A DNA stretch of 64,000 nucleotides from Candidatus Methylomirabilales bacterium (GTDB taxonomy: Bacteria > Methylomirabilota > Methylomirabilia > Methylomirabilales > CSP1-5): assembly GCA_046758505.1 (NCBI GenBank), contig JBHIAH010000003.1, forward strand, positions 1-64,000, written 5' to 3'. Made by a program: the position numbers and the translations under genes. Position 1 is the stretch's first letter. Each line of letters opens with the position of its first letter. Below the pieces are notes generated by a model. That model made no database searches and was not told where the DNA came from. It saw only the letters and a program-made list of their open reading frames with translations. Shown here piece by piece: positions 11,909-44,830 of this stretch.

Positions 11909-13246
11909 TCATCGCCTATGGCCTCGCGCGTCTCTTGGCAGTGAATCTCCTCGGTGCGAGACGACCGTGCGGGCTCGCCGTTCACCGGGCGGCATCGGGT
12001 CCGATGATACGCTCTGATTCACCCGGTCAAAGACATGCCCCTCGTCGTCAATCGCGAGAAAGCTGCGGCTGCGGCTGTCGACCGTGACGAGGATGAAGTG
12101 TCGCGTGCTGGCCGTCTTGGCCAGGTACCAATTTTTCCGGGGTCGTCTGGGCAGTACCCCCCAGGCCCCGTCGCCGAGGTATAACACCCCTTGCGGATCG
12201 ACCCTGCCCCCCCGAATCGGGTACGTACGCTTGTAGACGTGATCGTGGTGTTCAAAGGCGACGTCGACGCCGAACCGCTCAAAGAGGGGAACCCAGTGCT
12301 GGCGGATCTTCGTGCCGACCGAGTAGGTAAAGGGCCGGTTCGACGGATAGGCCGGCACGTGATAGACCACGAAGAGGTGGGGCACATCCTGTCGCTCGGC
12401 CAGCGTCCGACGCAACCAATCCGTTTGCGCACCGCCGATGGTGTGGGTATGGTCAGAGTCCAGCACAACCACGCTTAGATAGCGGCCAAAATCCAAGACC
12501 CGGTAGCCACGCCGGCCGGGCGTGGCGAACAAGCTGTAGAAAAACGGCGCTTTGTCGGGGACTTGCCCAAACCCCCCCCGGACCTCATGGTTGCCAATCG
12601 CAACCAATACCGGGATCAGCCGTCCGTCGGGCGTGACCATGTGCCTCTTCCAGCCTGCCAGCCAACGAAACCAACGCTTCACCGATCTCGGGTTTCCGTT
12701 GGCGTAGGCGATGTCGCCGCCGATGACCGCGAACATCGGACTCTGCTTGGCCGCCTGGCGGCAGGTTTCCTGAAACCATTCGCCGAGCATGTCGAGCGGC
12801 TCCATCGTATCTCCACCCACGACGAACCGGATCGGGGTGCTGACGTCTCGGGGCATGGTGCGGAAGGTGAACGCGACCGAGTTTTTCCCGAAGCGGAACT
12901 GGTAATCGCTCCCGGGCTCCAGGTTCGTCAGTTCGGCCACGTGCACAACCCGATCGGAATGAGGCAACGCGTGGTGCGACCCAACGGCACTGTGCCATCC
13001 CATTTCGTCGACCCGCCGATACTGCACCGTGTCACCCTTTTCGGCACCGCTATGCCACTGGATCGTCATCGTGGTCGTCGGGTCGTGTTGCCAGGTGAGG
13101 TAGACCGCGGGCGGATCAAAGGACCCCCTGCCGTTGCCAGGGGCCGCCCCGGACACCCCAACCGGCACGCTGGATAGTGTCAGGCATACGATCCCTGCTA
13201 TCCCGATGCGGACTACCCTGGACGCTATCGTCCCCACGCGTGGCAT
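11909..13246 (-). CDS. Secreted purple acid phosphatase-family metallophosphoesterase with N-terminal FN3-like domain
   Basis: Signal peptide; LTNLEPGSDYQF; GD, GGDIAY, GNHE, YHVP, HHDHVY metal motifs. Confidence 0.88.
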   Translation of the reverse strand: MPRVGTIASRVVRIGIAGIVCLTLSSVPVGVSGAAPGNGRGSFDPPAVYLTWQHDPTTTMTIQWHSGAEKGDTVQYRRVDEMGWHSAVGSHHALPHSDRVVHVAELTNLEPGSDYQFRFGKNSVAFTFRTMPRDVSTPIRFVVGGDTMEPLDMLGEWFQETCRQAAKQSPMFAVIGGDIAYANGNPRSVKRWFRWLAGWKRHMVTPDGRLIPVLVAIGNHEVRGGFGQVPDKAPFFYSLFATPGRRGYRVLDFGRYLSVVVLDSDHTHTIGGAQTDWLRRTLAERQDVPHLFVVYHVPAYPSNRPFTYSVGTKIRQHWVPLFERFGVDVAFEHHDHVYKRTYPIRGGRVDPQGVLYLGDGAWGVLPRRPRKNWYLAKTASTRHFILVTVDSRSRSFLAIDDEGHVFDRVNQSVSSDPMPPGERRARTVVSHRGDSLPRDARGHRR

Positions 13247-13569: not shown

Positions 13570-14531
13570 TCACCGGTTCAGCTCAATGATGCGGCCAGGC
13601 GTCAGCCGGGCTTCTGCCTCGCCGCGGCAGGAAAACCAGCAGGCTGTGCAGCCGGTGGGTCTGAACGTGTTGGGCGTGTATTCGGTCCGATGTGCTTCGA
13701 CGGGCAATTCGGAGCAGCCCTGCAAGTAGCCCCCGGGGGTGACCTGAAACCATGCGAGCCCGGCCTGGAAGCTGGGGACCGGCTCTTTGAAGTACGCAGG
13801 GATCTTCCGTAAGTAGAAATTGGAATTCCGGATGGTCCGGTGCGTGCGCTTGAAACGCATGAGTTCTTCAACGACGCCCTCGACTCTTTTCAAATCATCC
13901 CCCACGATGGTGTGGGTCGCGTTGTTGGCCTTGCCTTCGAAGTAGCTCGAGTACGAGACGCAGACGCCCAGGCCCTGGCCCAGGCGGGCGATGGGGATAA
14001 TATCATCCAAATTGTTCCTCATCATGAAGGCATTGAAGCTGATGTTGTCAATCCCGCGAGCCTTGAGTTTGCGGATCACGGTCGTGATGTGGTGAAAGAG
14101 GCCACGGATGCCGCGAGAGATATCGTGCCGCTCGCAGGCAAAATCGAGGGAAAAGGTGATCTGGCCAACTCCTGCCTCCCGCAGCTCGACTCCTTTTCCC
14201 TCTGTTATGAGTTGGCCATGCGTGATCACTTGGGTGCAGATAAACGCATATTGTCCTTGATCCGCCTGACAATGGCGGGCAAGTCCTTTCGGAGTAAAGG
14301 CTCGCCGCCTGTGATGTTGATGTACATGGGACCGAATTTCTTGATGATGGGAAGATAGTCTGTGATCCGCGTCTCATCCATTGTTTTCCAGGAGTCGCAG
14401 CAGTCGCAGCGGGCATTGCAGCTCTTGGTGACCTCAAGATTCACGAAGAGTGTGCCGCAGAGACTCTTCTGCTTGAGAAGCTTCACGGCCCCCGCCACGG
14501 CCATGTTCGGCGTAATGTTTTTCGTAATCAT
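13570..14531 (-). pseudogene. Radical SAM protein, frameshifted near 14243
   Basis: ORF 14226-14531 carries CNARCDCC and ITGGEPLLR; ORF 13570-14229 continues with ITHG, FSLD, HDISRG and C-terminal Cys. One extra T in cgttta would join them as MRFICTQVITHG. Could be a sequencing error. Confidence 0.75.
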
Positions 14532-14578
14532 GTAATCTCCCTAACGCTGCATACGCAGCACGCGGCTTGAAAAATGGC

Positions 14579-15583
14579 TTATCCGATTCGTTCAAGAACT
14601 TCCTGATTTCGCATCACTTCTGCCTTGTCCCCAAACGTGGCAAGGCACAGCAGACCAATACCCACCCATACGAGTTCCCTGATCCTCCGGATAAGACCCA
14701 GCGCCAATCCCGCCGCGGGCCCGAGTCCCATGATCTGGAAAATCAAAACCTTGCCAGCCTCCTGCGTACCGGCCTGCCAGGGGACGAAGAATAAGGCCGC
14801 GCTGATAATTAAGGACAGAGATTCGATCACAAAAGCCGTCACCCATGAGGTCGACAGCCCTAAGAAGACGAGGATCAGAAAGATCTCCACGATGCCCTCG
14901 GCCCAGCCCACTAGGTTGAGGACAAGCGATAGCACGAAGTCTCTCCCTTGGTTTTGATACACCGATGCGATGGCCTCGTCCATCCGTTTGATTTTCTCAA
15001 GACGGGCGTGCAAGAACGGTCTGCCCACGTGCCAGGCCGCCAGGGTCCTGGAGAGCCATCCGAACATCCCACGGCGCTGACCGTAGTAAAGGACGGCCAG
15101 GCCCACCGCGATGATCACAAGCGGGAGGACAAGCGCAAGGCGGATCCCAGGGGGCAGGTCAACAGTCGCCAGCGCAAGCGAACCGCCCAGAATCATGATG
15201 AGAAGCTGAGCCAAGACGAACGAATACTTCGCCACCGTCACCGAGGCGAGACCGCTTGACCAGCTCAAGTGGGCCTTCAGCAGCCTAGCCTTCACAGGCT
15301 CCCCTCCCATACTCGCGGATGGAATCAAGTAGTTGAATGCCTCGCCGGCCAGGCGCGCCCTGAGCAGGGCACCGAAAGGAACCTTCCGCTCCGCTCTGGG
15401 AAGGTTCCAGTGCCACGCCCAGGCAAAAATCGTGTGACTGAAAGAGCGCAACGCGACGATGGCGAGGAACCCCCATCCGACCCGACGGAGCTGAAGAAGC
15501 ACATTCTCCCATCCAAGCTCCGCCAGCATGAAAAAGAAGATGGCGAAGCCGATCGCGGCAATAGTTATCTTAAACCCTTTCAT
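14579..15583 (-). CDS. Flippase-like membrane protein (LPG-synthase TM / HpnL-like family)
   Basis: RLAGEAFNYLIPSASMGGEPVKA, FFVPWQAGTQEAG, RRIRELVW; multiple TM helices. Confidence 0.85.
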   Translation of the reverse strand: MKGFKITIAAIGFAIFFFMLAELGWENVLLQLRRVGWGFLAIVALRSFSHTIFAWAWHWNLPRAERKVPFGALLRARLAGEAFNYLIPSASMGGEPVKARLLKAHLSWSSGLASVTVAKYSFVLAQLLIMILGGSLALATVDLPPGIRLALVLPLVIIAVGLAVLYYGQRRGMFGWLSRTLAAWHVGRPFLHARLEKIKRMDEAIASVYQNQGRDFVLSLVLNLVGWAEGIVEIFLILVFLGLSTSWVTAFVIESLSLIISAALFFVPWQAGTQEAGKVLIFQIMGLGPAAGLALGLIRRIRELVWVGIGLLCLATFGDKAEVMRNQEVLERIG

Positions 15584-17063
15584 AGAAAAAGGATGCTCCA
15601 TACAGGACGACGAGTCCCAGCAGATACACGCTGATCCCCACACTCACCATCCACAAAAACCAGGACAACCGCCCGACGAGGGCCAGGAGGAGAACGAGAT
15701 ACGTGTAGTCTCTTCGGGAAAGGCCGTCCAGGACCCGCGTCAAGTGTCCCAGGAGACGGGCGGGCAACCCGGATCTTGTGGCGTGCGAGTCCTGGAAAGG
15801 CGAGAACGACCGGAACGATCCGGAGAAGCCGCCGGACTGGTGGACGAGTAAGAACAAGACGCCCATGCAGGCGAGCGCGCCGCCCGCAGCGACGGCACCT
15901 AACAGCAAGGGAAGCGGCTGGCCGCTCTGGCGGCTGACGCCAAGTCCTATTCCGAAAAATCCTGCCGCGGTGACGAGGCCGTCCCCGACAACGTCGAGGA
16001 TCCCGCCCAAGCGCGATGTTTGGAACTTCAGCCGGGCGATTTCTCCGTCGCAGCCGTCCAAGGTAGATTGGGCCTGAAATAAGAGGGCGCCTCCGATCAT
16101 GGATACGGTCCCCCCCTGCGCGAAGAGCACAGCAGCGACGATCCCCACAACAAAGAGGGCACCTGTGATCTGATTCGGGGTGACAGATGTGTCGGCGAGA
16201 AATCGCGTCACCCGCAGGGAAATCGGGCGGTTCAGTCTTTTGGCGAGAAACCCGTCCTGGGGTTTGGTGAGCTTTTGAAACAGCGACTTTTCGGCAAGCC
16301 TGAGTGCGTCCGGCGTATCCACATCCAGCCAGAAATCTCCGCCGATGTCTAAGGTCCTCACCTGCCGTTGTGCGGCCAGATGACCGATGCCGTCCGAGAG
16401 GGAGCACTCGGTGTGCATTTGGCACCAGCGCAGGGCAGCAAAGAGGGCAGGAGTGCAGAGAAAGAGCCCCGTGTCGATGGCGTTGTAATCGGCCAGGTTT
16501 TTGCCGATGGCCGCGACATGGTGATCTCGGAGGAGCACCTTCGTGGCATCGTCGAGGTCGGGGACCGCGCGGATTTTCCGGTCCACCGCGAGGATCACTT
16601 CTCCGTCTGCAATCGGGGCATGGATCAAGCGCCTGACGGTTTCGTCCGAAAAGAGATGGTCGGACATGCTGAGGAGAAATGGGCCCTCCAGGTAGCCCTC
16701 TGCCGCGAGGACTGAAAGGCCATTTTGCTTCTCCCACTCTGGATTTTCCACCCACTCGATCGCCACCCCCAGATTCCTCGCCGTGATCCATTGCCGGATC
16801 TCGGGACCGCGGTAACCGATCACCACGAGGAACTCCGTTACACCGGCCTCTTTTATCGTCAAGATCGTCCGTTCGAGAAGGGACAGTCCCCCCGCTCGCA
16901 CAAGCGGTTTGGGCCAATGCTGCCTCCCCGGTTCTTGCAAGCGGCCCCCACGGCCGGCGGCGATAATGACCGCTTTCCCAACGGCGTGCGGCTTCGGCGT
17001 TCCTGTCTCGTACCCCTCGGGAACGGCGACACCCCCGAGGGGAACGCGGGATGGCTCAGTCAT
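15570..17063 (-). CDS. Bifunctional nucleotidyltransferase / CDP-alcohol phosphatidyltransferase (IPCT/DIPPS-type fusion)
   Basis: N-domain IIAAGRGGRL, PKPL, NGLS, MSDH, IDTGLF, WLDVDT; C-domain TPNQIT and LDGCDGEIARLKFQTSRLGGILDVVGD CDP-alcohol motif. Confidence 0.88.
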   Translation of the reverse strand: MTEPSRVPLGGVAVPEGYETGTPKPHAVGKAVIIAAGRGGRLQEPGRQHWPKPLVRAGGLSLLERTILTIKEAGVTEFLVVIGYRGPEIRQWITARNLGVAIEWVENPEWEKQNGLSVLAAEGYLEGPFLLSMSDHLFSDETVRRLIHAPIADGEVILAVDRKIRAVPDLDDATKVLLRDHHVAAIGKNLADYNAIDTGLFLCTPALFAALRWCQMHTECSLSDGIGHLAAQRQVRTLDIGGDFWLDVDTPDALRLAEKSLFQKLTKPQDGFLAKRLNRPISLRVTRFLADTSVTPNQITGALFVVGIVAAVLFAQGGTVSMIGGALLFQAQSTLDGCDGEIARLKFQTSRLGGILDVVGDGLVTAAGFFGIGLGVSRQSGQPLPLLLGAVAAGGALACMGVLFLLVHQSGGFSGSFRSFSPFQDSHATRSGLPARLLGHLTRVLDGLSRRDYTYLVLLLALVGRLSWFLWMVSVGISVYLLGLVVLYGASFFYERV

Positions 17064-17275
17064 AGTATTCCACGCCCAAGTGGGTAACCAGATCCTCCCC
17101 GCACAGACCCCAAAGGCTGGTTTCCAATTTCGTGCGCTGGATGAAGCGGTCGTGCTCGGGTTAGAGATCTGGGGCCCTCATCGGACTTTTGCAACCAAAG
17201 GAAAGCCCGTCCTGCACGCCGCACATGCCACTCCTCTGCGCAAGGTCCAGAAAGAGGACGAGGTCCAGGACACCT
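17056..17275 (-). pseudogene. ino1: 3' remnant of an inositol-3-phosphate synthase gene
   Basis: Translates VLDLVLFLDLAQRSGMCGVQDGLSFGCKSPMRAPDL*PEHDRFIQRTKLETSLWGLCGEDLVTHLGVEYYD*, colinear with the C-terminus of the intact Ino1 at 17780-19159; in-frame TAA at 17161-17163. Confidence 0.85.
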
Positions 17276-17779: not shown

Positions 17780-19159
17780 TCATCCACGATCGCCCCGTCT
17801 CTGCCCCCCTGCCGATTGCCCACCCTCGTAATAATCCAGACCCGAGTGATCAAGCACCTCTTCGCCTACCAGGATGCGGAGCGTGTTCGTCAGCTTCAGG
17901 TGCTGGATGAATAGGTCGTGTTCGGGCTTGAGGTCCGCACGAGCCATCGGAGACTTGAAGTAGAAGGATAACCACTCTTGAATGCCCGACAGTCGCGCCC
18001 GCTGCGCGAGGTCCAGGAAGAGAATCAGGTCCAGGACGATGGGAGCCGCCAGAATGGAATCTCGGCACAGGAAATTCACTTTGATCTGCATCGGTTGACC
18101 CAACCAGCCGACGATGTCGATATTATCCCAGCCTTCCTTCGCATCTCCCCGCGGGGGATAATACTCGATGCGAATCTTGTGATAATACTGGCCGTACAGA
18201 TCGGGATAGAGATCCGGCTGCAGGATCGAATGCAACACCCCGCTCTTCGTCACCTCCTTTCCCCGGAACGAGCCGGGATCATCCAGCACTTCGCCATCCC
18301 TGTTGCCGAGAATGTTGGTGGAAAACCAGCCTTCGACCCCCAACATCCGGGCCTTCAGGCCAGGGGCGATCACTGTCTTCATCAACGTCTGCCCTGTCTT
18401 AAAGTCTTTCCCCGCGACCGGCACCCCTTGCCTGGCCGCGAGTTCGACGAGCGCCGGGATATCGACCGAGAGATTCGGCGCCCCGTTGGCGAAGGGGATG
18501 CCGCACCGGATGGCGGCATAGGCATAGATCATCGAGGGGGCGATCTCCGGGGCATTGTCCTTCAGCCCGCGCTCGAACGCCTCGAGAGTCTCGTGGGTGG
18601 GCCCGGCCTCAGAAAAGACCTCCGTCGAACCACACCAGATCATGACCGCGCGCTGCACTCCGTGGGCGCCCATGAATGCCTCGATGTCGTGCATGATCGC
18701 CTCGGCCAGATCCATCTTCGTGGAACCGGTCTTGACGTGCTTCCCGTGCAAGTTGCGGACGTACGCCTGCTCGAACACGCCTGGCCACGGCGTGATGGCC
18801 TCGAGTTCCCCTCGAATTGGGGCGAGCGTTTCGGCCGGCAGGACACCCGCAACGCAGGCAGACTGGTAGGCGTCCTCGGGAAAGATGTCCCACCCACCGA
18901 AGACAAGATCCTCAAGATGGGCCAACGGTACCAGGTCCTTGATCGGAACGAAGCGCGGCTGGGTCCGTTTGCCCAGCCGAACCTTTTGCATCTGGGTCAG
19001 CGAACCATACGGGTTGGCGAGTCCTCTGTTCACGAGATAGACCCCCGCGATGAGAGTCGTGCTCACCGCCCCCAGGCCCGGCAGCAGGACTCCGAGCCTG
19101 CCCCGCGCCGGCGCAATGTCTCTGGATAGCTCGGGATAAAACGAACTCCGTTCACTCAT
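17780..19159 (-). CDS. ino1: Myo-inositol-1(3)-phosphate synthase
   Basis: GLGAVSTT, FGGWD, CGSTE, FANGAP, AGKDFKTGQT, WFSTNILGNRDG, YYPPRGDAKEGWD, CRDSILAAP; ATGA overlap with the upstream gene. Confidence 0.95.
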   Translation of the reverse strand: MSERSSFYPELSRDIAPARGRLGVLLPGLGAVSTTLIAGVYLVNRGLANPYGSLTQMQKVRLGKRTQPRFVPIKDLVPLAHLEDLVFGGWDIFPEDAYQSACVAGVLPAETLAPIRGELEAITPWPGVFEQAYVRNLHGKHVKTGSTKMDLAEAIMHDIEAFMGAHGVQRAVMIWCGSTEVFSEAGPTHETLEAFERGLKDNAPEIAPSMIYAYAAIRCGIPFANGAPNLSVDIPALVELAARQGVPVAGKDFKTGQTLMKTVIAPGLKARMLGVEGWFSTNILGNRDGEVLDDPGSFRGKEVTKSGVLHSILQPDLYPDLYGQYYHKIRIEYYPPRGDAKEGWDNIDIVGWLGQPMQIKVNFLCRDSILAAPIVLDLILFLDLAQRARLSGIQEWLSFYFKSPMARADLKPEHDLFIQHLKLTNTLRILVGEEVLDHSGLDYYEGGQSAGGQRRGDRG

Positions 19160-20415
19160 GGCAACCTCTCCTCGCGATGTGAGGGGAGACGAGCGGTCCA
19201 CAGCAACACGAGAAAGAATATCGGAGCGCCCACCCCCGCTAGGGCCAAAAACCACGCCGCCTTTCCGAACGCCGAGAACAGGACCACGCCGTAGATGAAG
19301 TCTCGGCGAGCCAGCCAGTCCAACAGACGCGACAAGCCCGGTCCCGGCGATCGTACAAGCGAGGTAAAGAGCGGGCCATCCGCGTCCTTCGCTCGCATGG
19401 TATGCCAATACGCAAACCCGGCCGAGCCGACGGAGCCGGCGACCGCCAAGGCCCCGAGTAGCAAGGGCCACGTCGCCTGAGTGGCCAGACTCCACCCGAC
19501 CGCCATACAGAGGAACACGGCGACATGCACCACGTTATCTCCCCAGAAATCGAACAGGCCGCCCCAGCGAGACTCCTGAAGCTTCAACCGTGCCAGCTCG
19601 CCGTCGCAGCCATCCAGGATGGAGTGCAACAGAAAGAGCAGCCCGCCTGCCAGCTGATACGCCGCGCTGGATGACAGAAAAAAGGGGGCACCCACCAGCC
19701 CAATCCCTACACTCACCGCGGTCATGGCCCCGGGCGTCATGCCGGTCGAGACCAGCCGGCGCGTAATCCCCAGAGAGATCCGCCGCTCGACGTGACGCGA
19801 CATGAACCCCTCGTTCTCCTTGATCAGCCCGCGTAGGAGCCACGCCTCGGCGTTCGGGACATCGCGGGGCGTGCCGACAGCCATCACTCCCTCCCGACCC
19901 AGGGGCTGATATACAGGCGTGACGAGCTGGGCCAGCGCGGCGAAGAGGTCCGACGCCCCGAGGCCGCCCGACACTACCGGGAGGATCGCCCGCGCATCAA
20001 CCGCGTCAATCACCGCCACCAACTTTCCATCCCCATACAGCTGCCCCGGTGCGATCGGCATTTCCAGCAGCGCCCGTAACCACTTCGGCCGCGGAAGGAC
20101 GTTCGCCGCCAGCAACACCAGTCGCCCGGCCGGGAGCGGCGGGATCGGATCACCGGGCGAGAGCACGGTGACTCGTGAGCTATCGAGGAGAGGGGTGATC
20201 TCCGCGGGGGTCGGGGTGAGGATCAGAATCTGCCCGAAGCCGGCCCGACGGGCTGCCACCACACTCCGATGCAGCAGGGGAAGACCCAAGAGCATCGTAC
20301 CGGGCGACACTGGTGCCTCTCCATCCGCGTTATCGGGTGGGACGAGTAAGAGACTCGACGGCGTCACGCCCTCTTCGGAGTGCCGGCCTGCCGTCCCGGC
20401 GCTCACCGATTCCAT
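19156..20415 (-). CDS. CDP-alcohol phosphatidyltransferase-family protein with degenerate N-terminal nucleotidyltransferase-like domain
   Basis: LDGCDGELARLKLQESRWGGLFDFWGD motif and RRDF in the TM region; N-terminus GLPLLHRSVVAARRAG resembles an NTP transferase but lacks AAGxGxR. Confidence 0.85.
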   Translation of the reverse strand: MESVSAGTAGRHSEEGVTPSSLLLVPPDNADGEAPVSPGTMLLGLPLLHRSVVAARRAGFGQILILTPTPAEITPLLDSSRVTVLSPGDPIPPLPAGRLVLLAANVLPRPKWLRALLEMPIAPGQLYGDGKLVAVIDAVDARAILPVVSGGLGASDLFAALAQLVTPVYQPLGREGVMAVGTPRDVPNAEAWLLRGLIKENEGFMSRHVERRISLGITRRLVSTGMTPGAMTAVSVGIGLVGAPFFLSSSAAYQLAGGLLFLLHSILDGCDGELARLKLQESRWGGLFDFWGDNVVHVAVFLCMAVGWSLATQATWPLLLGALAVAGSVGSAGFAYWHTMRAKDADGPLFTSLVRSPGPGLSRLLDWLARRDFIYGVVLFSAFGKAAWFLALAGVGAPIFFLVLLWTARLPSHREERLP

Positions 20416-21485
20416 TTCCCCTCCTCCGCTCCGCGCGCTCCAACCAACGCCGACGGCCCGGGAACGGGAAGCGACGCCCCGCCCTGCCTGCTCGACTCTT
20501 GGGCGAGGGCCACAAGGGTGGCACAGAGAGAGGCCTCCGCGAGGTTCCCACCCCCCACGGTCGAGCCACCGCTCACCGCCGTCACGAAGCCGCTGGCCAC
20601 GCCTGCGAACCAGTCGGCGTGATGCGATCCCTCGGATAACGGCGGCGAAAAGGTCCATCGCCGCTCGGGCCGCCCGGATGCCTCTTGACGCAGCACCACC
20701 GTGCTGTCCTCAACACGCATTGTTCCCCGTGTGCCGTGCAGCTCCGCGACGTTTCGCCTCACATCAGCCGCCCAGGTGAGGTACACCTCAACCGCCGCCT
20801 GTGGGAGCTCGAGTCGCACGGTCGCCGTATCCTCCAGCGGGACCTGCGTGAACCGCCGGGTTTCAAGCCGGGCGCTGACCCGAGCCGGCGCCTGACCCAA
20901 CCAGCCCTGCAGCACATAGAACGCATGCCACCCATGGTCCACGAGCACCCCCCCGCCCGCGGTGGCCGGATCGAGCCGCCAGTTGCCAGCGCGGTCCCCA
21001 CCACCCGCGGCCGGTTTCGTCCGCAGCGTCTCCCAGCGGCAGCCCCTCACCTCTCCAATCGCGTCCTGCTGCAGCAGGTCCCGGACCCATCGGATGATCG
21101 GCGCATGGTGCCAGTTGTGGACGGTGTGCAGCACCCGGTCGGTCTCCGCGACGAGCGCCACCAACCCGCCGAGGTCCTCCACCCGACTCACCAAGGGCTT
21201 TTCGCAGAGGACATGCAGGCGGTGCTCAAGGGCGGTCCGGACCAGCCCTGCATGCGTTGCGGGCGGGGTGCAGATATCCACGAAATCGAGTCGCTCCGCC
21301 GTCAGGAGGTCCTCGACGGAGTCGTACCAGTGGACCGAGGGGAGGTGACACTGCAGTTCCCGCTCCCCTGTCCGGCACGGATCGCTTGCAGCCACAATGG
21401 CAACATCCCGGTGCTCCAGCCATCCCGGAAGATGCCCGTGGATGGCGACATTCCCCACCCCGACGATCGCTCCCCGGCAGGTCAT
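20403..21485 (-). CDS. Gfo/Idh/MocA family oxidoreductase
   Basis: GAIVGVGNVA, DICTPPATH, HVLCEKPL, GGGVLVDHGWH, LEDTA. Confidence 0.9.
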   Translation of the reverse strand: MTCRGAIVGVGNVAIHGHLPGWLEHRDVAIVAASDPCRTGERELQCHLPSVHWYDSVEDLLTAERLDFVDICTPPATHAGLVRTALEHRLHVLCEKPLVSRVEDLGGLVALVAETDRVLHTVHNWHHAPIIRWVRDLLQQDAIGEVRGCRWETLRTKPAAGGGDRAGNWRLDPATAGGGVLVDHGWHAFYVLQGWLGQAPARVSARLETRRFTQVPLEDTATVRLELPQAAVEVYLTWAADVRRNVAELHGTRGTMRVEDSTVVLRQEASGRPERRWTFSPPLSEGSHHADWFAGVASGFVTAVSGGSTVGGGNLAEASLCATLVALAQESSRQGGASLPVPGPSALVGARGAEEGKWNR

Positions 21486-21486
21486 C

Positions 21487-22815
21487 CTATCCAAGCCCCC
21501 ACTGCTCGGCGACCACGGTCATGGCTTCATCCAGGATCGCCAGCCCCTGCAGTGCGGTCTCCTCGCTGATAACCAACGGGGGATTGATGCGGATGATGTG
21601 CGAATAACACATCGCCACCAGACCCCGCCGCAGGCACTCGTGAAAGAGCGCCCGCGTTGCCTCCCTCGGCAGGGGCTCTTTCGTAGTGCGGTCCTTCACC
21701 AGCTCGAGCCCGAGCATCAGCCCCTTTCCCCGCACGTCTCCCACACATCGAAATTTCTCTTTGAATGCTTCGAGTCTCGCCAGCATGACCGCCCCGACGC
21801 GTTCCGCATTTGTGACCAGGTCCTCTTTCAGAATGATTTCCAATGAGGCGAGGCCGGCGGCGGCGGCGAGCGGATTGCCCCCGTAACTCGATGAGCTCCC
21901 GCTGGGATTGGCAAAGGGCTTCGCCCGGGTCAGTTCCTCCGTCGAGATGACCCCGCTGACCGGAAACCCGCCTCCCAACCCCTTGCCCACCGTCACCACA
22001 TCCGGCACCACCCCCTCATGATCGCACCCCCACATCTTCCCGGTCCGTCCGAAGCCGGTCAGCATTTCATCGGCGATCAAGAGCGCGTCGTGCTCCTTGG
22101 CAATCGCCTGGACCGCCCGGAGAAAGCCCTCCGGGGGGATCACATTCCCGGCCGTGCCTTGCATCGGTTCGACGATAATCGCGGCAATTTCCCCCTGCGT
22201 CTGATACCGGATAACATGGCGAAGGTGCTCCGCACAGGCAATCCCACAGCCCGGGAAGGTCAGGTTCAAGGGGCACCGGTAGCAGTTGGCGTAGGGTGAG
22301 ACGTAGAGACCCGGCATGAACGGACCCAGATGTTGCTTAAAGTCGTCCCCGAGGAGTCCCAACACCCCCCCCGTCTTCCCGTGAAAGCCCCCCCAGAACC
22401 CGATAAACTCAAACTTGCGGGTCGCCGACTTGGCCAGCCGGAGGGCGGCTTCCACCGCCTCTGCACCCCCCGAGAACAGCTGGATGCGCGTGAGCCCGTG
22501 CGGGCTGACAGAGGCGAGACGCTCGAGGAACCGGGTACGAGTCTCCGTCGTGAAGCTGCCGAACGTGAGCCGATCGATCTGCCGCTTCAACGCATCCACA
22601 TAGGTCGGATGACAGTGGCCGACGCTGCCGACGCCGATCCCGGCAATGAAATCAACGTACTCGTTCCCATCCTCGTCGATCAGCGTGCACCCTTGCCCCC
22701 GGGCCATGGCCACCCCCGAGTAGAGGGCGATCGACTGAAGCCCGGGGGCCATGTGGTGTTGCTCCCGCCCGACGATCTCTCGCGAGCGGGGACCCGGTAC
22801 GTTCCGCCCCATCAC
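21487..22815 (-). CDS. Class III PLP-dependent aminotransferase
   Basis: DFIAGIGVGSVGH, SGGAEAVE, GGFHGKT, IIVEPMQG, IADEMLTGFGRTG, PDVVTVGKGLGGG, VRGKGLM. Confidence 0.92.
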   Translation of the reverse strand: MMGRNVPGPRSREIVGREQHHMAPGLQSIALYSGVAMARGQGCTLIDEDGNEYVDFIAGIGVGSVGHCHPTYVDALKRQIDRLTFGSFTTETRTRFLERLASVSPHGLTRIQLFSGGAEAVEAALRLAKSATRKFEFIGFWGGFHGKTGGVLGLLGDDFKQHLGPFMPGLYVSPYANCYRCPLNLTFPGCGIACAEHLRHVIRYQTQGEIAAIIVEPMQGTAGNVIPPEGFLRAVQAIAKEHDALLIADEMLTGFGRTGKMWGCDHEGVVPDVVTVGKGLGGGFPVSGVISTEELTRAKPFANPSGSSSSYGGNPLAAAAGLASLEIILKEDLVTNAERVGAVMLARLEAFKEKFRCVGDVRGKGLMLGLELVKDRTTKEPLPREATRALFHECLRRGLVAMCYSHIIRINPPLVISEETALQGLAILDEAMTVVAEQWGLG

Positions 22816-23651
22816 ACCGATCCCCCGGTGAAACGCGCCTCCAAGTATGACGCAATCCGCGCCGACGCTTCATCCCGGTAGAGCGCGAAGCTGGGCCACG
22901 CATTCACATCGATTAACACCGGCACTCCCTCCCTCCCCACGATGGCATCCCCCCCGTACACCTCGAGGCCTAACACTGCCGCCGCCCGTTGTGCCAATGT
23001 GGCGAGTGCGGTCGGATCGAAGGGGAAGCCGGCCAGTTGCTGATCCCTGTGGTAGAACCACTGGAACCATGACTCCCGCCCCTGCAGGCGGCCGGGGTCG
23101 CCTACCCCGTAGAATTTGATCAGGTCGCCCGGCACATGCCCCTGAATCACCGCCCCGGGAATGCCGCGGTCGGCGAGGTGACGGAGGGCCTCATCCACTG
23201 CCGCCCTGGTGGGCGCAAACACCACATCGCCTTCCCGGATGTTATGCACATCGGCCCGTTTCACCCACACCCGTTCAGGGACAGGCGGGGCGGCCGATGC
23301 CGTCGAGACGATGACACTCGGCGGAAATGAGACGCCCGCCCGGTGAAAGAGGGGAATCATCCGGTCCCGATACGTGTTCAGAACTGCCGAGGGGCTATTG
23401 ACCTGAAGCACCCCCTCCATCTCGGGGCGCCGAAGCAGACGGAGGATCCCCGGACGCTCACACATCAGGAAGATGAACGCCACCGGGTGCTCGATGACCC
23501 CGCCCACCTCGTCCGGGTTCTTCAGACTGACCTGAAATCCCCTGGCTTCGAGATGTTTGGCGGTCAGGCGCAGGATTTCTGCATCATCAAATTCCCGACC
23601 CGGCGAATGGGGGCGCTCCCGAAAAATCCCGAGGCAGCAGTGACGGCTCAC
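22812..23651 (-). CDS. ATP-grasp fold protein (ITPK1-like motif pattern)
   Basis: VWVKR, IQGHVPGDLIKFYGV, GLEVYGGDAIV, LIDVNAWPSF; GTGA overlaps at both ends. Confidence 0.75.
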   Translation of the reverse strand: MSRHCCLGIFRERPHSPGREFDDAEILRLTAKHLEARGFQVSLKNPDEVGGVIEHPVAFIFLMCERPGILRLLRRPEMEGVLQVNSPSAVLNTYRDRMIPLFHRAGVSFPPSVIVSTASAAPPVPERVWVKRADVHNIREGDVVFAPTRAAVDEALRHLADRGIPGAVIQGHVPGDLIKFYGVGDPGRLQGRESWFQWFYHRDQQLAGFPFDPTALATLAQRAAAVLGLEVYGGDAIVGREGVPVLIDVNAWPSFALYRDEASARIASYLEARFTGGSV

Positions 23652-24367
23652 GTTGCACCCCCCGACTGGCCTCGCCGTGGCTGATCGTTCTGGTGGGCCA
23701 GCGTCTCGGCGAGGGCGACATCCTCGGCCCGGTCCACATCCACCACGGCCGGAAGGACCACCCCGTACAGCGGCTCTCCCCGCTGCAGAAGCCACACCAG
23801 GAACTCCCGCAGCCGTTTCACCTCGGGCGGAGGAGACAGCCGCCGCACCCGCTCGGGGACGAGATACAGGCCGGCGGTCACCACGTCGCCGGAGTCCCCA
23901 CCGAGGCTGGCGACGCGACCCGACGCATCCAGGGTGACCCATAACGGTCTTTCATCATCCACGAGCGGAGTCACCGCGAGGACACTGGCGTCTGGCGGAA
24001 ACAGCCGCGCCGCTCTCACGAACGTCCGGAACCCTTCTTCAGGGCACCAGGCATCCACCGTGGAAATCAGGGCACGACCGGCGCCCAGGCGCCCGGCCAC
24101 TTCCCGAAAGCTCTCCAGCGACGAGTCGGTCGTCTTCACAATGACCTGAAGGTCGAGACGGGGGAAGCGGGCCCGCGCCCAGGTCTCGCACTCGCGTGCC
24201 TGCTCATTGACGATGATCACCAGGGACGAGACACCCGCCCCCAGCAGATTTCGGATGGTGTGCTCGATCAGGGGGATGCCAGCTACAGGAACCAGGGGCT
24301 TCGGCATGGTCCAGCCTGCCTGCCGCAGGCGGGCGCCTGCGCCCGCCGCGATGATCCCCCCGCGCAT
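23648..24367 (-). CDS. Sugar-phosphate nucleotidyltransferase (NTP transferase)
   Basis: GGIIAAGAGARL, PKPLVPVAGIPLIE, STVD, TAGLY, VDVDRAED. Confidence 0.88.
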   Translation of the reverse strand: MRGGIIAAGAGARLRQAGWTMPKPLVPVAGIPLIEHTIRNLLGAGVSSLVIIVNEQARECETWARARFPRLDLQVIVKTTDSSLESFREVAGRLGAGRALISTVDAWCPEEGFRTFVRAARLFPPDASVLAVTPLVDDERPLWVTLDASGRVASLGGDSGDVVTAGLYLVPERVRRLSPPPEVKRLREFLVWLLQRGEPLYGVVLPAVVDVDRAEDVALAETLAHQNDQPRRGQSGGAT

Positions 24368-24381
24368 GATCGCCTCACCGT

Positions 24382-25107
24382 TCACAACAACAACTCCCGC
24401 AACCCCTCGAGGGTGTGGACCACCGCGTCGCCCGGACAGCACGGCCCTTCCTCGGGAGCCACCTCGGGCGTCAACCAAACGTGAGCCATTCCGACCTCGC
24501 GGGCCCCGGCCATGTCCCGCCGCAACGAATCTCCCACAAAGACCGCCTGTGCCGGCATAGCCTGCAACGCCGTCAATGCCGACCAAAAGATCCGCGGATC
24601 CGGCTTGACGCATCCGACGTTCACCGAGTCGACAACGACCGTCAGGAACGGACTCAGTCCGACCTCGTGGCAGACCGTGGCGAGGTTCCCGTAGAAATTC
24701 GAGACGATCCCGAGCCGATACCGGCGACTCAGGTGATCCAAGAGGGACACGTTGGAGGAGAGGCAGTCCCGGGCCTCATTCAGGAACCGCGTGGCGATCC
24801 GTCCACTTCGCCCGGCATTCCGCACGCCCAGACCGTCGGTCAGCCCCTGTACCAGTCGCCCGACGGTATCCTCAAACGAAAGCGTGGCAGGAATGGCACC
24901 GACCAGCGCATCATCGGCGGCGTAGAACGCCGGGGCAAATTGCTCGGATGAGAGCTCCACGCCTTCATCCCGGTACAAGCGGAAGAAACGCTCCTTCCAG
25001 GCAACGCCATTGGCATCCAAGGTGCCACCAAAATCGAACAGCACAGCGGTCCGCGCAGCGTGATCCAGCTCCGGCTGTGGACGTTGGTGCTGTTGCATTC
25101 CGTTCAT
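24382..25107 (-). CDS. HAD-family hydrolase/phosphatase
   Basis: LFDFGGTLD, IVSNFYGN, KPDPRIF, FVGDSLRRDMAGA. The second Asp of the DxD motif is Gly. Confidence 0.88.
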   Translation of the reverse strand: MNGMQQHQRPQPELDHAARTAVLFDFGGTLDANGVAWKERFFRLYRDEGVELSSEQFAPAFYAADDALVGAIPATLSFEDTVGRLVQGLTDGLGVRNAGRSGRIATRFLNEARDCLSSNVSLLDHLSRRYRLGIVSNFYGNLATVCHEVGLSPFLTVVVDSVNVGCVKPDPRIFWSALTALQAMPAQAVFVGDSLRRDMAGAREVGMAHVWLTPEVAPEEGPCCPGDAVVHTLEGLRELLL

Positions 25108-26123
25108 GCCAGCGATTTCTTGCTTGGCGAATCTGAGAGGGCCGCCCGAACAAACCGCCCGGCGTGTCTCTTCAACAAGACCACCAACCCCGGGATCACC
25201 CAGACCAGCTCCCGCCCCCGACGCACAATCCCGTAGGCGACCCCCTGTGCGGCCGGAAGGCCCAGCAGGACAAAAACCCCGACCCGCACCCCCTCCGCGC
25301 TGCCCACCCGCCCCGGGACAAAGGTGAGGAGCGAGTTGAGGGTCAACGCGAGCGCCTCGACGGCCACGGCTGTCACCCACCCTTCCGTCGGGGACAGAAG
25401 ACGCAGGACCACGTAGGTTTCCAGGAACCCGCCAGTCCACCCCACGAGGCACCAGCCCATCGCGGCAGCAAACGATCGCCTGTGCGTCCCGTAGAACGTC
25501 TGAATCCTGGTATCGAACTCTTCCGCCAATGGTTGATACGGCTTGAGACGGGACGCCAAGAGCTTCCAGCGGGCCAGCCGATGCAGGACCGGCGCGAAGG
25601 TCCCCTTGCGCAGCGCCCACGTCAAGAGGAGGAGACCCCCTCCCAGGCCAGCAAGGATGGCCGCGGCGGCCAGCTTGACCGGAGCCGAGAGATCAAATTG
25701 GGTCAGGCAGAGGCCCACGCCCCCCACCAGCAACACCCATTGCGCCAAGAGCTCGGCGTGCTTGTGAACCGTGACCGAAGCGACCGCATGCCCAAGTCCC
25801 AGGATCTCTCCCGACAGATGGGCCTTCACCGGTTCTCCCGCAAGATTGCCCGACGGGACGAGGTAGTTGATCGAATCACCAGCGAGGTATACCGCGAACA
25901 GGTTCCGGAAGTGTGAAGACCGCACGGGGGGGTCAATGAGCACCCACCATCCAGTCATGAAGGCAAGTTGCGCAAACAGATAGAGGACCACGAGGCCGAC
26001 AAACCACCCCCCGATCGCCGTCAGGTTCGTCTGAATGGCCGGCCACCCCACCACCCAGAGGATCCAGGCGATCAGGCCAACCCCGGCCACAACCAACCCG
26101 GCACTCCCAAGCTGCTTCAGCAT
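25104..26123 (-). CDS. Flippase-like membrane protein (LPG-synthase TM / HpnL-like family)
   Basis: YLAGDSINYLVPSGNLAGEPVKA, FVPGRVGSAEG, RRGRELVW; multi-TM. Confidence 0.85.
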   Translation of the reverse strand: MLKQLGSAGLVVAGVGLIAWILWVVGWPAIQTNLTAIGGWFVGLVVLYLFAQLAFMTGWWVLIDPPVRSSHFRNLFAVYLAGDSINYLVPSGNLAGEPVKAHLSGEILGLGHAVASVTVHKHAELLAQWVLLVGGVGLCLTQFDLSAPVKLAAAAILAGLGGGLLLLTWALRKGTFAPVLHRLARWKLLASRLKPYQPLAEEFDTRIQTFYGTHRRSFAAAMGWCLVGWTGGFLETYVVLRLLSPTEGWVTAVAVEALALTLNSLLTFVPGRVGSAEGVRVGVFVLLGLPAAQGVAYGIVRRGRELVWVIPGLVVLLKRHAGRFVRAALSDSPSKKSLA

Positions 26124-37094: not shown

Positions 37095-38015
37095 ATGGAT
37101 TCGGTCTTCTCGCTGTTGCTCGGGACCCTTGTGCTGCGGCCGTACGTCTTCGCCTTCCTGTTCCTCTATCTCTTCGCGGCCGTGGCCGACATGGGATGGC
37201 GGCGGACCCTCCTCTTCACCCTGGTGGGGTGGGGTGTCGCGTTTACCGCCGAATCCCTCTCCATCCGGGTGGGGATTCCCTTCGGTCTCTATCATTATCT
37301 GCCCACTACCGCCCATCGAGAGCTCTGGATCGCCGGGGTCCCCTTCATGGATTCTCTCTCTTTTATCTTCCTGGCCTATGCAAGCTGGAGCCTCGCCTCC
37401 CTGGCGCTGCTCCCCCCGTGTAAGGATGGGGAGCGACGGTGGGCCTTCTCGGTCCCGTACCGAGGCCGATTTCGTCCTCCCGTTCTCCTGCTCACCGTCC
37501 TCTTCTTTGTCCTCATCGACATCGTGGTAGACCCCATCGCCGTCCGGGGGGACCGCTGGTTTCTCGGCCAGATCTTTTACTACCCCGAGCCCGGTGCCTA
37601 CTTTGGGGTCCCGGTCTCCAATTTCATCGGCTGGGGGGTGGTGGGGAGCACAATCATGGCCCTCTTTACGCTCCTCGAGCGACGGATCGATCGCGGCCCG
37701 CCGGCCTGGGCGGTAGAGCTTCCCCTGCGCCCCCTGTATGGACCGGCGCTCTACTACCTCGTCCTGGCGTTTTCCCTCACCGTCACCTGGCTGATCGGGG
37801 AGCAGACACTGCTCCTCGTCGGGCTCTTCATCTACGGCCCCCTCACCACCCTCCTGGCGGTGACGATCGCCGCCCGGTGGCGGGAGGGACAGCAGGCGGC
37901 CATAGGGAATCTCAAGCCACGGCAAGGCGTTCTCTCCTCAGGGAACATCCCCTCGAACGGCCGGGGATCGCTCCCCGTGGAGGTCATGTGGAAGGAGGAC
38001 CAGCACCTCGAATAG
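37095..38015 (+). CDS. CruF-like membrane protein (carotenoid hydratase / DUF422-like family)
   Basis: AESLSIRVGIPFGLYHY, IAGVP, DIVVDP, YFGVPVSNFIGW duplicated-motif pattern; multi-TM. Confidence 0.75.
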   Translation: MDSVFSLLLGTLVLRPYVFAFLFLYLFAAVADMGWRRTLLFTLVGWGVAFTAESLSIRVGIPFGLYHYLPTTAHRELWIAGVPFMDSLSFIFLAYASWSLASLALLPPCKDGERRWAFSVPYRGRFRPPVLLLTVLFFVLIDIVVDPIAVRGDRWFLGQIFYYPEPGAYFGVPVSNFIGWGVVGSTIMALFTLLERRIDRGPPAWAVELPLRPLYGPALYYLVLAFSLTVTWLIGEQTLLLVGLFIYGPLTTLLAVTIAARWREGQQAAIGNLKPRQGVLSSGNIPSNGRGSLPVEVMWKEDQHLE

Positions 38016-44660: not shown

Positions 44661-44815
44661 GGTTCAAAACCTAAAAATGGCGGCCGGCTTCTTACCATGA
44701 ACTACGAACTATGAACCCTGAACCGAGCCGGCGGTCATCGGTCGTCGGACTTAGGCGAGCTCCCTTCGGGGCTGAGCCTCAGGGTCGAAGACAGTCGAGC
44801 CGTCATCGGTCACCT
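44619..44815. repeat. Heptamer-based inverted repeat plus CGGTCAT-type repeats
   Basis: ggttcagggttca (in the hpnD 3' end) pairs with tgaaccctgaacc at 44712-44724; cggtcatcggtcgtcgg at ~44732 and gtcatcggtca at ~44802. Confidence 0.7.
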
Positions 44816-44830
44816 TGGAAGGCGGACATC

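What the first reader, a model, noticed from the sequence alone, without database searches (positions are those of the whole stretch)
17780..26123. Eight-gene inositol-phosphate/aminocyclitol headgroup operon attached to the hopanoid cluster
Seen: eight minus-strand genes, overlapping or nearly abutting, directly downstream of shc: flippase-like, HAD, nucleotidyltransferase, ATP-grasp, class III aminotransferase, Gfo/Idh/MocA, CDP-alcohol transferase, ino1. Known: Ino1 + cytidylyltransferase + CDP-alcohol transferase + phosphatase is the logic of inositol-lipid and di-inositol-phosphate synthesis. The usual hopanoid headgroup genes hpnI/hpnK/hpnJ/hpnB are not in this window. Inference: the operon builds a CDP-activated, possibly aminated or extra-phosphorylated inositol and attaches it to a lipid acceptor, perhaps a bacteriohopanepolyol, which would be a headgroup I do not know as described.
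Basis: partly seen in the sequence, partly recalled or inferred. Interest (0 to 1): 0.85.

Follow-up and report, generated by a model that had tools for sequence, protein, structure and literature searches.

The report
Hopanoid-linked amino-inositol head-group operon
Eight tightly coupled genes beside the hopanoid cyclase most likely build an amino-inositol-phosphate head group for a membrane lipid; their transferase lineage tracks hopanoid producers so closely that the lipid may be a hopanoid itself, a compound I could not find described.

Summary
The operon is real: eight intact minus-strand genes with overlapping stops and starts, 371 bp after shc, in a Methylomirabilales genome. Five genes match the unproven 'alternative inositol-lipid cluster' of Phocaeicola vulgatus (Heaver 2022). 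An ATP-grasp protein with ITPK1-type kinase motifs, not named in that paper, sits in both clusters. A Gfo/aminotransferase pair is added here. The scan reported this operon before in other genomes.

The operon comes with two distantly related transferases. Short-type loci (Bacteroidota, Ignavibacteria, Gemmatimonadetes) track ceramide genes: ceramide-synthase-like gene in 29/29 genomes, shc in 4/29. Long-type loci (AF2299-like, as here) track hopanoids: shc in 37/38, never beside sphingolipid genes. In an evenly drawn 401-genome phylum sample, 33/35 genomes with this transferase family have shc, against 36/366 others; only 1 of 94 ceramide-only genomes has it.

Best reading: CDP-aminoinositol is transferred to an extended hopanoid (about 0.45). 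Rivals are a glycerolipid (0.27), ceramide (0.12; this genome also encodes it) and a soluble solute. All enzyme steps are inferred; no product has been observed.

The parts
25104..26123 (-). LPG_synthase_TM / HpnL-like membrane protein, probable flippase (339 aa)
   Evidence: PF03706 E 4e-30; TIGR00374 over cut-off, TIGR03476 HpnL 116 bits, below cut-off 195.65
24382..25107 (-). HAD-family hydrolase, probable inositol-phosphate phosphatase (241 aa); motif I is DxGGTxD, lacking the usual second Asp
   Evidence: PF00702/PF13419; D25, S136, K168, D193, D198 conserved in at least 94 of 100 aligned sequences
23648..24385 (-). Stand-alone nucleotidyltransferase, probable CTP:(amino)inositol-phosphate cytidylyltransferase (245 aa)
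   Evidence: PF12804/PF00483; GxGxR and PKP motifs present, G15/G17/R19/K29 in at least 106 of 110 aligned sequences
22812..23651 (-). ATP-grasp protein with ITPK1-type motifs, probable inositol or inosamine kinase (279 aa)
   Evidence: ATP-grasp fold; K179, D248, N250 invariant in 108 of 108 labelled homologues; aligns to KFY and D-x-N of AtITPK4 and human ITPK1, where RimK and PsnB have R and E-x-N; fused to NTP, HAD or CDP-OH domains in other proteins
21487..22815 (-). Class III PLP aminotransferase, probable inosose aminotransferase (442 aa)
   Evidence: PF00202 E 1e-102; D249 and PLP lysine K278 in 96 of 96; no NCBIfam equivalog among the 25 best shown reaches cut-off
20403..21485 (-). 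Gfo/Idh/MocA oxidoreductase, probable inositol dehydrogenase (360 aa)
   Evidence: PF01408/PF22725; EKP and DxxxH conserved in 86 of 86; weak similarity to inositol and scyllo-inositol dehydrogenases
19156..20415 (-). AF2299-like CDP-alcohol phosphotransferase ('long type', 419 aa) with a degenerate N-terminal nucleotidyltransferase-like domain
   Evidence: PF01066; signature DGCDGELAR...G...D...D intact; best PDB sequence and fold match AF2299 (4o6m/4o6n), then IPCT-DIPPS (4mnd); N-domain lacks GxGxR
17780..19159 (-). myo-inositol-1-phosphate synthase Ino1/MIPS (459 aa)
   Evidence: PF07994 E 5e-96, PF01658
26495..28426 (-). Squalene-hopene cyclase shc, last gene of the upstream mlaEFD-OEP-mlaC-hpnN-mlaC-pagL-shc run
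   Evidence: TIGR01507 798 bits, over cut-off
17060..17247 (-). Decayed 3' remnant of a second ino1 (in-frame stop), overlapping the start of the IPCT/DIPPS-like gene
   Evidence: 52% identity to ino1 residues 383-445; translation; intact ino1 at this position in G011/L107
15570..17063 (-). Bifunctional IPCT/DIPPS-like enzyme with an intact nucleotidyltransferase motif (second, simpler inositol module)
   Evidence: NF041135 243 bits, below cut-off 580; falls in the same large transferase clade as the long type
14579..15643 (-). Second HpnL-like / LPG_synthase_TM gene (true start probably near 15600)
   Evidence: PF03706, TIGR03476 177 bits
13570..14531 (-). Radical SAM gene split into two frames
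   Evidence: collinear in one frame in G011/L107; no indel in four DNA runs

Best explanation
The operon makes an amino-inositol-phosphate head group, activates it with CTP and transfers it to a membrane lipid, most likely the side-chain hydroxyl of an extended (C35) hopanoid. Proposed route: Ino1 makes L-myo-inositol-1-phosphate from glucose-6-phosphate (established for the family). HAD and the ITPK1-like kinase move the phosphate to another ring position. Gfo and the aminotransferase turn one ring OH into NH2 through an inosose. The nucleotidyltransferase forms CDP-aminoinositol. The AF2299-like transferase links it by a phosphodiester to the lipid. The HpnL-like protein flips the product, and HpnN/MlaC export it. 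Shown: the genes, their intact motifs, conserved order and co-occurrence. Inferred: every substrate, the order of steps and the acceptor.
For: (1) The five-gene core is the cluster that Heaver et al. propose for inositol lipids in B. vulgatus, which does make PI-dihydroceramide (passages read). (2) The ATP-grasp gene also sits in six-gene clusters with no aminotransferase, so it need not act on an amine; its motifs are ITPK-type and invariant with or without the aminotransferase. ITPK1 phosphorylates inositol monophosphates, and its Lokiarchaeal homologues flank inositol-phosphate synthase genes (PMC6900528, section 6 and abstract read). (3) Across 79 loci the transferase is swapped along with the lipid context. 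Long type, n=38: shc in genome 37, ceramide-synthase-like 22, hopanoid gene in the fetched DNA 11 (21 with dxs), spt/bCerS in the locus 0. Short type, n=29: shc 4, ceramide-synthase-like 29, hopanoid gene in locus 0, spt/bCerS in locus 12. Twelve loci were unclassified. (4) Even sample of 401 genomes of one phylum: 33 of 35 with this transferase family have shc, against 36 of 366 without. The family is in 15 of 34 shc-only, 18 of 35 shc+ceramide, 1 of 94 ceramide-only and 1 of 238 neither genomes. Of the two exceptions, G545 has hpnH and G334 has hpnN beside the gene. (5) hpnH, needed for C35 hopanoids, is in 78 of 80 such genomes, chosen among shc-positive ones. (6) Adjacency to hopanoid genes recurs in different arrangements: shc (own genus), hpnN-mlaC (another family of the order, Rokubacteria, Pseudolabrys, Deltaproteobacteria), hpnH (Nitrospirae), dxs-ispH-hpnD/G/A/H-shc (Thermoanaerobaculia). 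(7) This genome has hpnH and hpnG but no hpnI/J/K/B over cut-off, so its hopanoid side chain has no known head-group enzymes.
Against: No product has been observed, and my searches found no phospho-inositol hopanoid in print. [quoted passage not shown] Methylomirabilis record carries the operon (L039). One long-type genome (G072, labelled Chloroflexia) has no shc, hpnH or ceramide synthase hit; it is 1 of 121 in its order. shc is near universal in the own order (56 of 61) while the ATP-grasp gene is in 20 of 61, so co-occurrence there says nothing. In the complete genome G036 the operon abuts hpnN-mlaC but lies far from shc. This genome also encodes cerR-spt-bCerS plus a PAP2_3 protein, and 17 of 21 full operons in the phylum sample have a ceramide-synthase-like hit. 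27 of 38 long-type loci show no hopanoid-specific gene in the fetched DNA (many are truncated). Related genomes are not independent, so the Fisher P of 1e-26 overstates the case. Diacylglycerol is universal and cannot be excluded by co-occurrence.
Confidence: 0.45

Rival explanations
1. The same head group is put on a glycerolipid (diacyl- or ether-glycerol), giving a phosphatidyl-aminoinositol. The hopanoid link reflects a shared membrane-ordering or export regulon, not a shared molecule.
For: Heaver et al. propose CDP-inositol + DAG for the related cluster and cite CDP-inositol as precursor of dialkylether inositol lipids. Characterised CDP-alcohol transferases act on glycerolipids or small polyols (recalled). 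DAG is universal, which fits G072, a carrier with neither shc nor ceramide synthase. The operon is an accessory insertion in its own genus.
Against: It does not explain why 33 of 35 carriers have shc against a 10% background, why 1 of 238 genomes with neither shc nor ceramide synthase carries the family, or why the transferase clade changes together with the neighbouring lipid genes.
Confidence: 0.27
2. The acceptor is ceramide, directly or through the PAP2_3/AUR1-like enzyme, giving an amino-inositol phosphoceramide as the short-type operons probably do.
For: G000 encodes cerR-spt-bCerS and an adjacent PAP2_3 protein. 17 of 20 ATP-grasp carriers in the order and 17 of 21 full operons in the phylum sample have a bCerS-like hit. 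B. vulgatus makes PI-DHC.
Against: 16 of 38 long-type genomes lack a bCerS-like hit (Rokubacteria, Pseudolabrys, Terrimicrobiaceae, Nitrospirae), none of 38 has spt/bCerS in the locus, and only 1 of 94 ceramide-only genomes has the family.
Confidence: 0.12
3. The product is a soluble phosphodiester (an aminated di-inositol-phosphate-like compatible solute), not a lipid.
For: The closest solved relatives are AF2299 and IPCT-DIPPS. The DNA runs holding the stretch are labelled hydrothermal vent metagenome (they may be the source).
Against: NF041135 scores 87 bits against a cut-off of 580. A flippase-like gene and lipid exporters travel with the operon. Many carriers come from groundwater, soil-core or peat records (titles). 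A solute would not track shc.
Confidence: 0.08
4. Reversed chemistry: the ATP-grasp enzyme phosphorylates the lipid (or acts as a ligase), the nucleotidyltransferase makes a CDP-lipid, the transferase adds inositol-1-phosphate PIPS-style, and HAD removes the last phosphate.
For: It uses kinase and phosphatase without a relay. A ceramide kinase starts head-group assembly in Caulobacter (passage read). Fold searches rank RimK, LysX and Ddl ligases with or slightly above ITPK1 (Z 21.9-21.1 against 18.7).
Against: The ATP-grasp protein and nucleotidyltransferase have no hydrophobic segment. The ATP-grasp active site is invariant across ceramide-type and hopanoid-type operons, which suits one shared small substrate.
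Confidence: 0.08

Closest known systems
Putative 'alternative' inositol-lipid cluster of Bacteroides (Phocaeicola) vulgatus and Prevotella (Heaver et al. 2022, PMC9246714)
   Same: MIPS, NTP transferase, CDP-alcohol phosphotransferase, HAD and lysyl-PG-synthase-like gene. The ATP-grasp gene is there too, between NTP and CDP-OH (29 of 30 Phocaeicola loci; one such protein is named P. vulgatus), though 'ATP-grasp' occurs in neither the main text nor the held supplements.
   Different: Adds Gfo and a class III aminotransferase. Uses a different transferase clade (23% over 121 aa; DGCDGELAR against DSADGQLAR). Sits with hopanoid, not sphingolipid, genes. The paper itself says the functions are unconfirmed.
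AF2299 and IPCT-DIPPS of Archaeoglobus fulgidus (PDB 4o6m, 4mnd); di-myo-inositol-phosphate and CDP-inositol ether-lipid routes
   Same: Two-domain architecture and CDP-alcohol transferase signature; Ino1 plus cytidylyltransferase logic.
   Different: The N-terminal domain looks inactive and the cytidylyltransferase is a separate gene; kinase, phosphatase, oxidoreductase, aminotransferase and flippase are added; the DIP equivalog cut-off is not met.
ITPK1-family inositol phosphate kinases (eukaryotes, Asgard archaea; PMC6900528, PMC8024741)
   Same: ATP-grasp fold, K-F-Y and D-x-N-x-x-P motifs, and location next to an inositol-phosphate synthase gene.
   Different: Bacterial and shorter. Only 10 of 97 family members touch PF05770, at best E 0.002, fewer than touch RimK (15 of 97). 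The passages read place ITPK in eukaryotes and archaea only.
Hopanoid head-group routes HpnI/HpnK/HpnJ (glucosaminyl-BHT, cyclitol ether) and HpnO (aminotriol)
   Same: Would also put an amino-cyclitol or amino group on a C35 hopanoid. An HpnL-like gene is present; HpnL function is still unknown (PMC12324291, PMC12583986, passages read).
   Different: No glycosyltransferase, deacetylase or ring-contracting radical SAM enzyme in the genome. The link would be a phosphodiester made from a CDP donor.
Inosamine formation in aminoglycoside, rhizopine and validamycin pathways (recalled, no call)
   Same: A dehydrogenase plus aminotransferase converts a cyclitol OH to NH2.
   Different: Here the pair is embedded in a CDP-head-group lipid operon; regiochemistry is unknown.

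Membership tests
B. vulgatus-type alternative inositol-lipid cluster | MIPS, NTP transferase, CDP-alcohol transferase, HAD and LPG-synthase-like gene clustered | tested here: met
B. vulgatus-type alternative inositol-lipid cluster | Transferase orthologous to the Bacteroidota enzyme | tested here: not met
   Separate clade (short-type clade support 0.998); 23% identity over 121 aa
B. vulgatus-type alternative inositol-lipid cluster | Product is PI-DAG or PI-dihydroceramide | not testable with these tools
   needs lipidomics
IPCT/DIPPS di-myo-inositol-phosphate pathway | Transferase reaches the IPCT/DIPPS equivalog cut-off with an active fused cytidylyltransferase | tested here: not met
   NF041135 87 bits against 580; N-domain lacks GxGxR
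AF2299-like CDP-alcohol phosphotransferases | N-terminal nucleotidyltransferase-like domain plus membrane CDP-AP domain with intact signature | tested here: met
ITPK1 kinases | ATP-grasp fold with D-x-N metal motif and K-F-Y lysine | tested here: met
ITPK1 kinases | Pfam PF05770 at the gathering threshold | tested here: not met
   0 families for the window protein; 10 of 97 members weak, best E 0.002
ITPK1 kinases | Fold closer to ITPK1 than to ATP-grasp ligases | tested here: inconclusive
   ArgX Z 21.9 (rmsd 2.7, 248 aligned), RimK 21.3, human ITPK1 18.7 (rmsd 3.0, 249 aligned)
ITPK1 kinases | Inositol-phosphate kinase activity | not testable with these tools
   needs an assay
HpnL (TIGR03476) | Score above cut-off 195.65 | tested here: not met
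   116 bits; the same Pfam family is also in hopanoid-free Bacteroidota clusters
HpnI/K/J/B hopanoid head-group pathway | hpnI, hpnK, hpnJ or hpnB in the genome | tested here: not met
   none over cut-off in G000, 96.8% complete
Hopanoid-modifying system (proposed) | Carriers encode shc and hpnH | tested here: met
   37 of 38 long-type genomes; 33 of 35 in the phylum sample; hpnH 78 of 80 among shc-positive carriers; one clear exception, G072
Hopanoid-modifying system (proposed) | Product contains a hopane skeleton | not testable with these tools
   needs LC-MS/MS or an enzyme assay

The most novel reading that the evidence does not exclude
A clade of AF2299-like CDP-alcohol phosphotransferases makes phospho-hopanoids: bacteriohopanepolyols carrying a phosphodiester-linked (amino)inositol head. 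One portable head-group module, with a bacterial ITPK1-like kinase, is plugged onto ceramide in Bacteroidota, Ignavibacteria and Gemmatimonadetes and onto hopanoids in Methylomirabilota, Rokubacteria, Thermoanaerobaculia, Deltaproteobacteria and others, simply by swapping the transferase and exporter.
Probability: 0.4. Interest if true: 0.88.

Novelty: new variant of a known kind. Interest (0 to 1): 0.7.

Why it matters
If the acceptor is a hopanoid, this is a lipid class I could not find described, made by abundant uncultured soil, groundwater and methane-cycling bacteria. It would affect how hopanoid biomarkers are read and give HpnL-like proteins a concrete context. Even with a glycerolipid or ceramide acceptor, an amino-inositol phospholipid was not found in my searches, and its head group is isobaric with hexosamine-phosphate (same formula, by arithmetic), so it may be hiding in existing lipidomes. 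The ATP-grasp protein is a directly testable candidate for a bacterial ITPK1-like inositol kinase. It also fills an unexplained gap in the gut P. vulgatus inositol-lipid cluster, where genetics is available.

Tried and rejected
Literature: 10 searches of the held library. 'hopanoid + inositol + Methylomirabilis' gave 1 irrelevant paper. 'inosamine + phospholipid + headgroup' gave 0. 'CDP-inositol + vulgatus + kinase + inositol lipid' gave 2, neither seen to name a kinase in the cluster (I read passages of one, the other only as a listing). Searches on Methylomirabilis lipids gave no primary lipid paper. 'bacteriohopane/hopanoid/CDP-alcohol/inositol/hpnL' gave 13 listings; none showed bacteriohopane, CDP-alcohol and inositol together. 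Subscription papers are not covered, so absence from print is not established. PMC9385802 had no passage on AF2299 or DIPPS.

Searches for amine-specific residues in the ATP-grasp protein (79 with aminotransferase against 29 without) found none that is convincing; the active site is the same. Pfam, the protein atlas and fold searches do not assign the ATP-grasp family. Promoter and terminator scans were at chance level. No RNA holder was listed, so expression is untested.

I rejected the idea that the aminotransferase/Gfo pair acts on the hopanoid side chain like HpnO, because the pair occurs inside short-type operons in 12 genomes without shc. I rejected shc co-occurrence within the own order as evidence, because shc is in 56 of 61. 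No complex prediction was run.

Dropped rows: locus L091/G104 (unpublished) was left out. It is included in the 37/50 tally,, in the tree, and as one of 12 rows of the ceramide-synthase alignment A3; no conclusion depends on it. In one search the weak hit of G064 (E 7e-17) was counted as no ceramide synthase. The search for related loci returned only the best 80 of at least 592 matches, so one search is biased to close relatives. The phylum searches scored only the top 3-4 candidates per genome.

Full report
Observation. The eight genes are real, intact and translationally coupled. They run from 26123 to 17780 on the minus strand and start 371 nt after shc. Pfam assigns LPG_synthase_TM, HAD, NTP transferase, aminotransferase III, Gfo/Idh/MocA, CDP-alcohol phosphotransferase and inositol-1-phosphate synthase. 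The fourth gene has no family hit; its model is an ATP-grasp fold. The closest named homologue is from a Ca. Methylomirabilales bacterium. Upstream lie shc, pagL-like, mlaC, hpnN, mlaC, a TolC-like gene and mlaDFE; on the other strand are hpnH, hpnG, a third hpnL-like gene, hpnA, ispA and hpnD. hpnI, hpnJ, hpnK and hpnB do not reach cut-off anywhere in the 96.8%-complete genome.

Conservation. The ATP-grasp gene is in 20 of 61 genomes of the order, and the 19 fetched loci show the same gene order wherever the contig allows; L014 lacks the Gfo/aminotransferase pair. shc is in 56 of 61, so the operon is accessory. In the own family the slot after shc is variable: nothing, a phosphatase, a glycosyltransferase, a lone long-type transferase, ino1 + IPCT/DIPPS + radical SAM, or the eight genes. 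This window holds the eight genes followed by remains of the simpler module. A scan of GTDB genomes found at least 592 relatives, of which 80 were kept: Rokubacteria, Nitrospirae, Thermoanaerobaculia, Deltaproteobacteria, Pseudolabrys, Verrucomicrobia, Ignavibacteria, Gemmatimonadetes and Bacteroidota.

What is known. Heaver et al. [quoted passage not shown] They state that the functions are unconfirmed and that B. vulgatus makes PI-dihydroceramide. The ATP-grasp gene is not mentioned. Yet it is in 38 of 54 genomes of the Phocaeicola genus sample and lies between the NTP transferase and the transferase in 29 of 30 loci examined; one such protein is named P. vulgatus. The window's operon is therefore an extended relative of a published but untested cluster. 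Earlier scan reports on other genomes reached the same reading; I had recorded it before looking.

The ATP-grasp protein. It is fused to the nucleotidyltransferase, HAD or transferase domains in some proteins, so it is a pathway member. K179 and D248-x-N250 are invariant in 108 of 108 labelled homologues, with or without the aminotransferase. In HMMER alignments these match KFY and D-x-N of AtITPK4 and D-x-N of human ITPK1, where RimK and PsnB have R and E-x-N. ITPK1 phosphorylates inositol monophosphates, and Lokiarchaeal homologues flank inositol-phosphate synthase genes (PMC6900528, abstract passages and section 6). Against this, Pfam and fold scores do not prefer ITPK1 over ligases. An inositol or inosamine kinase is my inference, at about 0.7.

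The amination pair. The Gfo and class III aminotransferase keep their catalytic residues and are usually present or absent together. They occur in 12 short-type genomes without shc, so they modify the head group, not the hopanoid. Conversion of inositol through an inosose to an inosamine is inferred from recalled pathway logic.

The acceptor. The operon carries one of two distant transferases (trees; motifs). The short type (about 310 aa) is found with serine palmitoyltransferase (NF047600 over cut-off) and a GNAT ceramide-synthase-like gene; that label is recalled from the known spt-bCerS-cerR trio (passage) and has no family model. The long type, as here, is AF2299-like. Tally over 79 loci: long, n=38, shc 37, bCerS-like 22, hopanoid gene in locus 11, sphingolipid gene in locus 0; short, n=29, shc 4, bCerS-like 29, hopanoid gene in locus 0, sphingolipid gene in locus 12; 12 unclassified. 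The four short-type genomes that do have shc keep the operon beside spt/bCerS.

To reduce selection bias I searched 401 genomes drawn evenly from the phylum of G087. The long-type profile hit 35 at E<=1e-40 (7 above 400 bits), shc 69 and bCerS-like 129. 33 of 35 have shc against 36 of 366; 19 of 35 have bCerS-like against 110 of 366; only 1 of 94 ceramide-only and 1 of 238 neither genomes carry the family. Neighbourhoods were fetched for 34 of the 35; with G087's known locus, 21 show the operon, and many show hpnN, mlaC, hpnA, hpnH or shc. These hits fall into roughly eight groups of the gene tree (my count), so the effective sample is far smaller than 35, but still well above a 17% background. 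hpnH is in 78 of 80 shc-positive carriers.

Evidence against a hopanoid acceptor. No such lipid was found in print. The only M. oxyfera hopanoids I saw cited are BHP-hexol and its 3-methyl form (review passage). G072 has the long-type operon without shc, hpnH or bCerS and is alone among 121 genomes of its order. G000 itself encodes cerR-spt-bCerS, a PAP2_3 protein and a third IPCT/DIPPS-like gene on contig C1, and 17 of 21 full operons in the phylum sample also have a bCerS-like hit. DAG cannot be excluded by any co-occurrence test. Expression was not testable.

Verdict. Inositol-derived, CDP-activated lipid head group: about 0.8. Aminated: about 0.75. Acceptor: hopanoid 0.45, glycerolipid 0.27, ceramide 0.12, soluble solute 0.08, reversed chemistry 0.08. 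It works like the B. vulgatus-type and CDP-inositol routes but fails membership of the DIP pathway, the HpnI/K/J pathway and orthology with the Bacteroidota transferase. I class it as a new variant of a known, unproven kind, with a credible chance of a new lipid class. Claims touching the unpublished genome G104 are listed under Tried and rejected; none is needed for the verdict. bioRxiv supplements were not consulted; Table S3 of PMC12324291 (genes near shc) could bear on whether this linkage was already tabulated.

Noticed in passing
window 17060-17247 and 13570-17063: Second inositol module directly downstream: decayed ino1 3' remnant, IPCT/DIPPS-like gene, hpnL-like gene and a radical SAM gene split into two frames. 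In G011 (L107) ino1, IPCT/DIPPS and an unsplit radical SAM gene follow shc without the eight-gene operon, which suggests interchangeable modules.
   Followed up: partly
window 11909-13246: Purple-acid-phosphatase-like gene follows the operon in four same-genus genomes and follows shc alone in G001.
   Followed up: partly
G000:C1:143023-147419 (L155): cerR-like, spt, bCerS-like cluster plus a convergent PAP2_3 (AUR1-like) gene: this genome probably makes ceramides. A bCerS-like gene is in 33 of 61 genomes of the order.
   Followed up: partly
G000:C1:129748-131070 (L154): Third IPCT/DIPPS-like gene, on a separate branch of the transferase tree.
   Followed up: partly
L124-L153 (Phocaeicola genus): The gut 'alternative' inositol-lipid cluster contains the uncharacterised ATP-grasp gene between the NTP transferase and the CDP-alcohol transferase; a testable candidate bacterial ITPK1-like kinase.
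   Followed up: yes
L041, L052, L054, L059, L060, L064 (Acidobacteriota): Two paralogous operons diverge around dxs-ispH, one with and one without the Gfo/aminotransferase pair: possibly both inositol and amino-inositol versions in one cell.
   Followed up: partly
P0121, P0131, P0146: Natural fusions: NTP-ATP-grasp, ATP-grasp-CDP-alcohol transferase, HAD-NTP-ATP-grasp.
   Followed up: partly
window 24382-25107: HAD motif I is DxGGTxD in 98 of 100 aligned sequences, without the usual general acid/base Asp; it may work as a phosphotransferase or need another acid/base.
   Followed up: no
window 44711-46905 and 37095-38015: Two zinc-dependent dehydrogenases after hpnD and a CruF-like hydratase before hpnH. 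The enzyme reducing ribosylhopane to BHT is said to be unknown, so the dehydrogenases are candidates.
   Followed up: no
L076, L080-L082, L092-L094 (Ignavibacteria-type loci): mlaEFD genes are embedded inside the short-type operon, whereas long-type operons pair with hpnN-mlaC-OEP: the exporter seems to swap with the transferase.
   Followed up: partly
G080, G082, G084; G036: hpnH has an in-frame insertion in G080, G082 and G084 (438-440 aa frame) and appears split in two frames in G036.
   Followed up: no
L042 (G072): The only long-type locus without shc has the same gene arrangement as the Pseudolabrys loci and is unique in its order sample: recent transfer or mis-binning.
   Followed up: partly
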